This document shows, in pieces, positions 38,217-38,558 of a stretch of 64,000 bases of DNA. Location of the stretch: assembly GCA_951406725.2 (NCBI GenBank), contig OX597817.1, forward strand, positions 126,542,001 to 126,606,000, in the 5' to 3' direction. Under the pieces are notes generated by a model. The model did no database searches and was not told where the DNA came from. It saw only the letters and a program-made list of their open reading frames with translations. This DNA is from Octopus vulgaris. Taxonomy: Eukaryota. Within the stretch, counting starts at the first letter, position 1. Every line of letters starts with the position of its first letter. A program made the position numbers and the translations under genes.

Positions 38217-38558
38217 GCCCACGGACATATGGCGTAGGGATTAAGAGCGGGAGATACTAATTCTGAGGTAGATTCCAGGCAGTGACCTGAATAATAATAA
38301 TAATAATAATAATAATAATAATAATAATAATAATAATAATAATAATAATAATAATAATAATAATAATAATAATAATAATAATAATAATAATAATAACAAC
38401 AACAACAACAACATGGAAAATACGTTAGGAATGAGAACCCAGGTTCAAAATTTCCCCAAGACCCCTGATGAATGTTGGAGGGTATATCAACCAAACCGTT
38501 GTGTTAACAACAAAGAAGATCAGGGCAAATATCCGTCAAATGTAAATAATGTAAATAA
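38217..38558 (+). mobile_element. Composite SINE: tRNA-like head + (AAT)n + hammerhead-bearing tail
   Basis: A-box-like TGGCGTAGGGA and B-box-like GGTAGATTCC (38217-38289), (AAT)n/(AAC)n 38290-38412, tail with CTGATGA at 38465-38471. Confidence 0.65.

What the first reader, a model, noticed from the sequence alone, without database searches (positions are those of the whole stretch)
38217..38558. Tripartite SINE: Pol III tRNA-like head + (AAT)n + hammerhead tail
Seen: an A/B-box-like head, a long AAT tract and a roughly 150-bp tail. The tail and its inverted copy (35735-35874) are each damaged in a different half and together give a consensus GACAC-CTGATGA-a-GGCTG..CAGCC-GAAA-CG-TT-GTGTT, with palindromic ACGT and stem I GACAC/GTGTT. 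Established: SINEs normally borrow LINE 3' tails, while minimal HHRs mark Penelope pLTRs. Inference: this is a Pol III-driven, ribozyme-processed non-autonomous element mobilised by a PLE rather than a LINE, an unusual partnership.
Basis: partly seen in the sequence, partly recalled or inferred. Interest (0 to 1): 0.75.

Follow-up and report, generated by a model that had tools for sequence, protein, structure and literature searches.

The report
Penelope end repeat with tRNA promoter
This is not a separate SINE but one arm of a broken-off end repeat of a common protein-coding jumping gene (a Penelope-like element); the unusual part is that the repeat starts with a tRNA-derived stretch that likely acts as an RNA polymerase III promoter, possibly for the whole element.

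Summary
The head, (AAT)n tract and hammerhead-like tail are real and linked across the genome. They are the terminal repeat (pLTR) of a Penelope-like element (PLE) with an 835-codon RT + GIY-YIG frame. The head sits 29 nt after the stop codon, and the 'tail' is the first ~155 nt of the next ORF. The 'inverted copy' at 35703-35871 is the other arm of the same insertion (7-bp TSD), split off later by a young LINE. Head-start copies form no lineage of their own, so no separate SINE is supported. The unusual part: the head resembles tRNA-Arg, 5' ends pile up at its start (15 of 23 arms; about 2-fold read-depth step), and the 2.65-kb unit has no TTTT (null 2.9-4.8; two control elements have theirs). 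This fits Pol III transcription, with short copies made when RT starts in the first pLTR. A fold-back hairpin at the same spot is a rival cause. Pol III use and cleavage are untested; both window ribozymes are mutated. tRNA-plus-hammerhead SINEs (Sm-alpha) and PLE-derived retrozymes are in print. This scan already noted the same reading on other DNA of this genome.

The parts
35691..35697 (+). Left target-site duplication (AGTTTCA)
   Evidence: Same 7-mer at 38564-38570; 30 of 48 inverted pairs share 7 nt or more, against 4% in shuffled pairs
35703..35873 (-). Left (inverted) arm: pLTR tail with the ~30-nt PLE 'tail' extension; mutated hammerhead at 35781-35826
   Evidence: aligns to family tail position ~173
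35875..35970 (-). (AAT)n of the left arm, first part
35971..38130 (-). Younger, 5'-truncated non-LTR LINE (RT, zf-RVT, RLE-like end; R4/Dong-like by recalled motifs) inserted into the left arm's (AAT)n
   Evidence: (copies 98% identical over the query)
38131..38213 (-). (AAT)n of the left arm, second part
38214..38222 (.). Fold-back junction between the two arms at the 5' end of the head
   Evidence: the same junction class is seen in RNA reads (joint 1730-1812, opposite strands)
38223..38289 (+). tRNA-Arg-like head with A-box (38230-38240) and degraded B-box (38265-38276); in full-length elements it starts 29 nt after the ORF stop
38290..38413 (+). (AAT)n/(AAC)n tract, a variable-length part of the pLTR
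38412..38558 (+). 'Tail' = 5' end of the PLE ORF repeated in the pLTR; ATG at 38431; short-type 3' end
38460..38505 (+). Minimal type I hammerhead (predicted cut after 38500); core mutated in this copy
38564..38570 (+). Right target-site duplication

Best explanation
The stretch is the right arm of a head-to-head, 5'-truncated insertion of a Penelope-like retroelement and consists only of that element's terminal repeat, whose tRNA-derived head likely serves as an RNA polymerase III promoter. Shown: the 2652-nt unit is [29-nt linker - tRNA-like head - (AAT)n - ATG - hammerhead within the first ORF codons - RT - GIY-YIG - stop]; copies end at two sites about 30 nt apart; inverted pairs carry TSDs; 5' ends cluster at the head start. 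Inferred: Pol III starts a few nt before the head of an upstream pLTR and, meeting no T4, would run through the whole unit. The PLE protein would start reverse transcription internally, as shown for the anole Poseidon element. A start in the downstream pLTR gives long copies; a start in the first pLTR gives ~300-nt copies that end at the RNA 5' end and look like a SINE. The hammerhead is predicted to cut only as a dimer or with protein help.
For: Identity: head sequence follows the stop in 27 of 29 endonuclease-selected loci and the tail in 24 of 29. The tail reads in frame into the N-terminus in real copies. The family frame has 835 codons with two in-frame TGA stops and is 56% identical over 827 aa to P0023 from elsewhere, which keeps the peptides that overlie both hammerhead core strands. 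RT matches Pfam RVT_1 (E 3.9e-6, below the curated cut-off). 3' ends are bimodal and 39 of 48 inverted pairs have one long and one short end. TSDs: 30 of 48 against 4%. No SINE lineage: 25 label changes against a shuffled mean of 28.2 (75 of 500 as low); divergence 6.1% against 5.8%. Pol III: best match among 30 own tRNA loci is tRNA-Arg(TCG), 49 identities, score 61.5 against a shuffled maximum of 50. 15 of 23 arms that reach the head start at -16..+11, none at +12..+75, and 8 further upstream. Read depth steps up 1.7-, 2.2- and 2.1-fold at the head start in three runs of one study. 0 TTTT in the unit: synonymous-codon null 2.9 (P 0.027), base shuffle 4.8 (P 0.0075). Control PLE ORF 3 observed against 2.4; LINE 1.6 per kb. 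TTTATAAG/A at about -36..-29 in 26 of 29 copies.
Against: No direct evidence of Pol III transcription: the RNA runs are unstranded, follow the copy gradient and show no start pile-up at the head. The T4 test is one family, P about 0.03 under the stricter null, with a T-poor strand (22% T); G4 runs are also absent (0 against 0.75). A short hairpin spans the head start, and many junctions there are fold-backs, so the hotspot may come from template structure. Head remnants too short for BLAST (L003, L012) were missed in the 15-of-23 count, and 2 of 20 unselected arms in long loci start inside the head. The TATA-like motif overlaps the last codons and stop, so its conservation is not independent. 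The tree is star-like, so it has little power. Pfam gave no GIY-YIG match; that domain rests on recalled motifs. How an uncapped RNA would be translated is unexplained.
Confidence: 0.75

Rival explanations
1. The module is the PLE pLTR, but the tRNA-like head is a passenger: an old tRNA-SINE head captured in the 3' UTR. The element is read by Pol II, and the 5' hotspot comes from the small hairpin that stalls or folds back the cDNA.
For: Fold-back junctions are common at the hotspot. Known PLE promoters are Pol II-like (PMC8557442, PMC3846280, passages). The head no longer folds as a tRNA. An ORF needs translation, which favours a capped RNA (general knowledge).
Against: Many plain, non-inverted copies also start at -8..+4 (L010, L018, L020, L024, L025, L028, L158, L204). 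The hairpin is only 4-5 bp. A- and B-box-like motifs are kept in the family majority. The unit has no T4 while two control elements have theirs.
Confidence: 0.35
2. One reading: a separate non-autonomous SINE (solo pLTRs transcribed by Pol III and re-amplified in trans by the PLE protein) accounts for the short copies.
For: A solo pLTR holds both the putative promoter and the RT start region (the region needed in anole Poseidon is the first 172 nt of the ORF, PMC11167929). Head-start copies are a large class. Some have TSDs, for example L025.
Against: No clustering and the same divergence as ORF-linked copies. The strongest group differences are variants shared with my window query, so selection bias; the others were commoner in ORF-linked copies. 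One full-length template explains both classes. One copy begins at the head and runs on into the ORF (L137).
Confidence: 0.15
3. Chance adjacency: independent head and tail elements meet because both land in (AAT)n.
For: (AAT)n here is a real target for other elements. 14 of 29 tail-selected loci lack a same-strand head.
Against: Fixed order and strand in 24 of 29 head-selected loci, and ORF stop-head-tail continuity. Missing heads fit 5' truncation or inversion.
Confidence: 0.01

Closest known systems
Penelope/Poseidon PLEs, e.g. Poseidon_Ac of the green anole (PMC11167929, parts 1-2 of 4 read) and Adineta Pen2a (PMC3846280, passages)
   Same: One ORF of ~840 aa with RT then C-terminal GIY-YIG; pLTR includes the ORF start; hammerhead overlaps the first codons; two 3' ends ~30 nt apart; inverted 5' arm; TSD of about 7-14 bp.
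   Different: No tRNA or Pol III element was reported in the passages read; their promoters are described as TATA/Inr-like or left open. Here the pLTR holds a tRNA-Arg-like head and (AAT)n, and the unit has no T4. Clade membership was not tested by phylogeny.
Minimal hammerheads of metazoan PLE pLTRs (Cervera and De la Pena 2014, PMC4209133, passages)
   Same: Type I, bulged base before stem II, palindromic stem III region, predicted to act as a dimer.
   Different: None of note; cleavage not tested here.
Sm-alpha / Sj-alpha of Schistosoma (described in PMC6765202 and PMC2770079, passages; primary paper not held)
   Same: tRNA-related Pol III promoter plus hammerhead in a short high-copy repeat.
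   Different: Non-coding and often tandem; here the module is part of an ORF-bearing element and the ribozyme lies in coding sequence.
Non-LTR retrozymes as PLE derivatives (bioRxiv 10.64898/2026.07.22.740005, parts 1-3 of 5 read)
   Same: pLTR-derived hammerhead repeats proposed to use PLE enzymes.
   Different: Defined by tandem units; the copies here are dispersed solo or inverted arms with a tRNA head and form no lineage of their own.
Octopus tRNA-derived SINEs of Ohshima and Okada 1994 (seen only as a citation in PMC4758252; paper not held)
   Same: tRNA-derived repeats from what is probably the same animal group (the host guess rests on recalled repeats).
   Different: Could not compare sequences. 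OR2 is listed as a CORE SINE; whether one of the three families is this head is open.

Membership tests
EN+ Penelope-like element | Single ORF with RT and GIY-YIG endonuclease | tested here: met
   835-codon frame; RVT_1 at E 3.9e-6, below cut-off; 56% identity to full-length P0023. The GIY-YIG call rests on recalled motifs; Pfam gave none.
EN+ Penelope-like element | pLTR from partial tandems, including the ORF start | tested here: met
   L115, L126, L132, L148
EN+ Penelope-like element | Inverted 5' arm and 30-40 bp tail at one end | tested here: met
   39 of 48 pairs have one long and one short end; bimodal 3' ends
EN+ Penelope-like element | Hammerhead motif in the pLTR | tested here: met
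   Family majority over 153 copies; 42 have both core strands exact
Penelope/Poseidon clade | RT phylogeny | not tested
   Only the architecture was compared; no CxxC finger before the GIY-YIG, unlike the second PLE in the window
SINE | Pol III promoter derived from a small RNA | tested here: inconclusive
   tRNA-Arg likeness, 5' hotspot, no T4; transcription itself not shown
SINE | Non-autonomous lineage separate from its partner | tested here: not met
   The module is part of the ORF-bearing unit; no clustering on a low-power tree
SINE | 3' end borrowed from a LINE, with poly(A) or simple-repeat tail | tested here: not met
   The 3' part is PLE ORF start; the simple repeat is internal
Non-LTR retrozyme | Tandem array of non-coding hammerhead monomers | tested here: not met
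   The 13 arbitrary-stretch loci hold solo or inverted arms; no such array in the window. Not searched genome-wide.
Hammerhead ribozyme | Self-cleavage | not testable with these tools
   Weak hint only: 9 of 105 unselected arms begin within 10 nt of the predicted cut and none in the 19 nt before it

The most novel reading that the evidence does not exclude
An autonomous, protein-coding retroelement is transcribed end to end by RNA polymerase III from a tRNA-Arg-derived promoter in its terminal repeat, with its 2.5-kb ORF purged of T4 terminators. One RNA then templates both full-length copies and thousands of SINE-shaped copies, a living intermediate in the birth of tRNA-plus-hammerhead SINEs such as Sm-alpha.
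Probability: 0.35. Interest if true: 0.72.

Novelty: new variant of a known kind. Interest (0 to 1): 0.45.

Why it matters
How PLEs are transcribed and why they carry hammerheads is open. A family with a Pol III promoter would make testable how a long uncapped RNA is translated and processed by the ribozyme. It would also give a direct route from an autonomous PLE to ribozyme-bearing SINEs and retrozymes. For annotation, roughly 36,000 loci (13 per Mb sampled, scaled to 2.8 Gb) could be filed as a tRNA SINE when they are PLE ends.

Tried and rejected
Rfam and ARAGORN found neither hammerhead nor tRNA in the module. Single-strand folds gave no significant z-score. No RNA holder was listed among indexed runs. 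Raw RNA runs of one study were unstranded, poorly suited to Pol III RNAs, and showed no start sites at the head. DNA around protein relatives was not obtained: the metagenome scan gave one distant locus (L336, 41%) with its own hammerhead-like motif, several T4 runs and no tRNA-like head that I could see by eye; the prokaryote scan gave none. So whether relatives share the head is untested. The bacterial promoter scan is irrelevant and at chance level. The left arm's C3>A plus G8>T looked like a compensatory pair, but it is not among the 25 commonest core types, so I treat it as chance. The G3>A and tail C>A differences between copy classes are query-selection bias. Two papers were not held. 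Searches for a tRNA or Pol III promoter in a PLE listed no title or abstract describing one; Repbase and most subscription journals are not covered, and no supplements were read.

Full report
Observation. The head (38223-38289), the (AAT)n/(AAC)n tract and the tail (38412-38558) are present as described, and an inverted tail lies at 35728-35871. The own genome has 2.8 Gb. The tail search had 3798 first-look candidates. 13 of 100 arbitrarily placed 10-kb stretches hold the family, about 36,000 loci if scaled. Both window arms have core mutations. Rfam, ARAGORN and single-strand folding do not recognise head or ribozyme.

Linkage and identity. Of 29 other head-selected loci, 24 have the tail downstream on the same strand. 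Of 29 tail-selected loci, 15 have a same-strand head. Upstream of the head, L059 runs into an RT plus GIY-YIG-type frame. Selecting on that frame's end (2615 candidates), head sequence follows the stop in 27 of 29 loci and the tail in 24 of 29. Walking to the N-terminus closes a 2652-nt unit with a 29-nt linker, the 75-nt head, (AAT)n and an 835-codon frame whose ATG lies inside the 'tail' (real copies). The majority frame has two TGA stops, probably CpG decay (inference). The tail is therefore the start of the ORF repeated in a pseudo-LTR. This is the arrangement of anole Poseidon, where the hammerhead overlaps the start codon and RT starts internally at two sites (PMC11167929, parts 1-2 of 4). 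A full-length relative from elsewhere (P0023, 56% over 827 aa) keeps the peptides lying over the two core strands while the residues between them differ, which fits selection on the ribozyme; its DNA was not seen. The GIY-YIG label rests on recalled motifs, since Pfam found RT only.

The window locus. 3' ends over 204 arms are bimodal, near tail positions 140-150 and 170-173 (the reference ended at 173). Of 48 inverted pairs, 39 have one long and one short end and 30 share a direct repeat of 7 nt or more outside (4% in shuffled pairs). The window pair is one of them: long left arm, short right arm, AGTTTCA at 35691 and 38564. So the two 'copies' are arms of one insertion, as described for PLEs (PMC8557442, PMC3846280; passages). 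A 2160-nt LINE (RT, zf-RVT), whose family is 98% identical over the query and ends in (TAA)n in 24 of 25 loci, later split the left arm's (AAT)n.

Is there a SINE? Head-start copies are a real class. Of 23 arms from tail-selected and arbitrary loci that reach the head, 15 begin at -16..+11 (the two most upstream values are alignment overshoot at fold-backs), none at +12..+75, and 8 further upstream. Very short head remnants were missed, and the window's own locus was left out. In three RNA runs of one study, depth on a good copy steps from 672, 385 and 363 to 1157, 834 and 753 across the head start, and 169, 116 and 129 reads join the head start to an inverted (AAT)n, as in the window. But 38 head-start and 48 ORF-linked copies interleave on a tree (25 changes, shuffled mean 28.2, 75 of 500 as low; 13 of 99 rows dropped for gaps), and tail divergence is 6.1% against 5.8%. 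The tree is star-like, so this is weak evidence, yet nothing points to a separate lineage. One template explains both classes: an RNA starting at the head has two internal RT start regions, and use of the first gives a ~300-nt SINE-shaped copy (inference from PMC11167929).

Pol III. Among 30 own tRNA loci (only 63 candidates scored, few isotypes) the head is closest to tRNA-Arg(TCG), with 49 identities and score 61.5 against a shuffled maximum of 50. The unit's sense strand has no TTTT: expected 2.9 with synonymous codons shuffled (P 0.027) and 4.8 with bases shuffled (P 0.0075). A second PLE family from the window has 3 against 2.4 expected, and the LINE has 1.6 per kb. A TATA-like motif lies at about -36..-29 in 26 of 29 copies but overlaps the stop. 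Against this: the P value is modest, a 4-5-bp hairpin spans the hotspot and many junctions are fold-backs, the RNA data are unstranded and show no start sites, and translation of an uncapped RNA is unexplained. I put the PLE-end identity at about 0.95 and Pol III activity of the head at about 0.55.

Ribozyme. It is a minimal type I motif with a palindromic stem III region, the kind reported for animal pLTRs and predicted to act as a dimer with low activity (PMC4209133, passages). 9 of 105 unselected arms begin within 10 nt of the predicted cut, one exactly at it, and none in the 19 nt before; other stretches of the tail hold similar numbers of starts, so this is a hint only.

Known context. 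Sm-alpha combines a Pol III promoter and a hammerhead (PMC6765202, PMC2770079; passages; primary paper not held). Retrozymes as pLTR derivatives are argued in bioRxiv 10.64898/2026.07.22.740005 (parts 1-3 of 5). Searches listed no title or abstract on a tRNA-derived promoter inside an autonomous PLE; I saw only listings for most hits, Repbase is not covered, and no supplements were read. The 1994 octopus SINE paper could not be read. Earlier notes of this scan reached the same reading on other pieces of this genome; I had stated it before looking and tested it here.

Verdict. An ordinary PLE end in anatomy and mechanism, with one unusual and partly supported feature, a tRNA-derived promoter in the pLTR of a T4-free unit. 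New variant of a known kind; interest 0.45.

Noticed in passing
window 35971-38130 (-); L311-L335: Young, abundant LINE family (R4/Dong-like by recalled motifs; copies 98% identical over the query) that sits in (TAA)n. PLE pLTR tracts supply targets, for example this window and L019, L078.
   Followed up: partly
window 45378-46219 (+); L281-L310: Second PLE family with a CxxC finger before the GIY-YIG (Neptune/Nematis-like), flanked by microsatellites; used only as a T4 control.
   Followed up: partly
window 35814-35821 (-): The left arm's hammerhead has both C3>A and G8>T, which would restore a 3-8 pair; not among the common core types, probably chance.
   Followed up: partly
family hammerhead position 7: U7>A in 16 of 153 copies, the commonest non-CpG core change, at the one position the ribozyme tolerates (recalled); may mark a subfamily.
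   Followed up: no
L183:737-925: Inverted pair whose two arms both begin at the predicted hammerhead cut, with short tandem repeats of the first 17 nt between them.
   Followed up: no
L336:1520-1550: Distant PLE relative on a 1.6-kb metagenome contig with its own hammerhead-like motif about 150 nt after the ORF end and no tRNA-like head visible by eye.
   Followed up: no
window 4736-4912: Two-copy 89-nt tandem of a different, very common SINE-like repeat also seen around many fetched loci.
   Followed up: no
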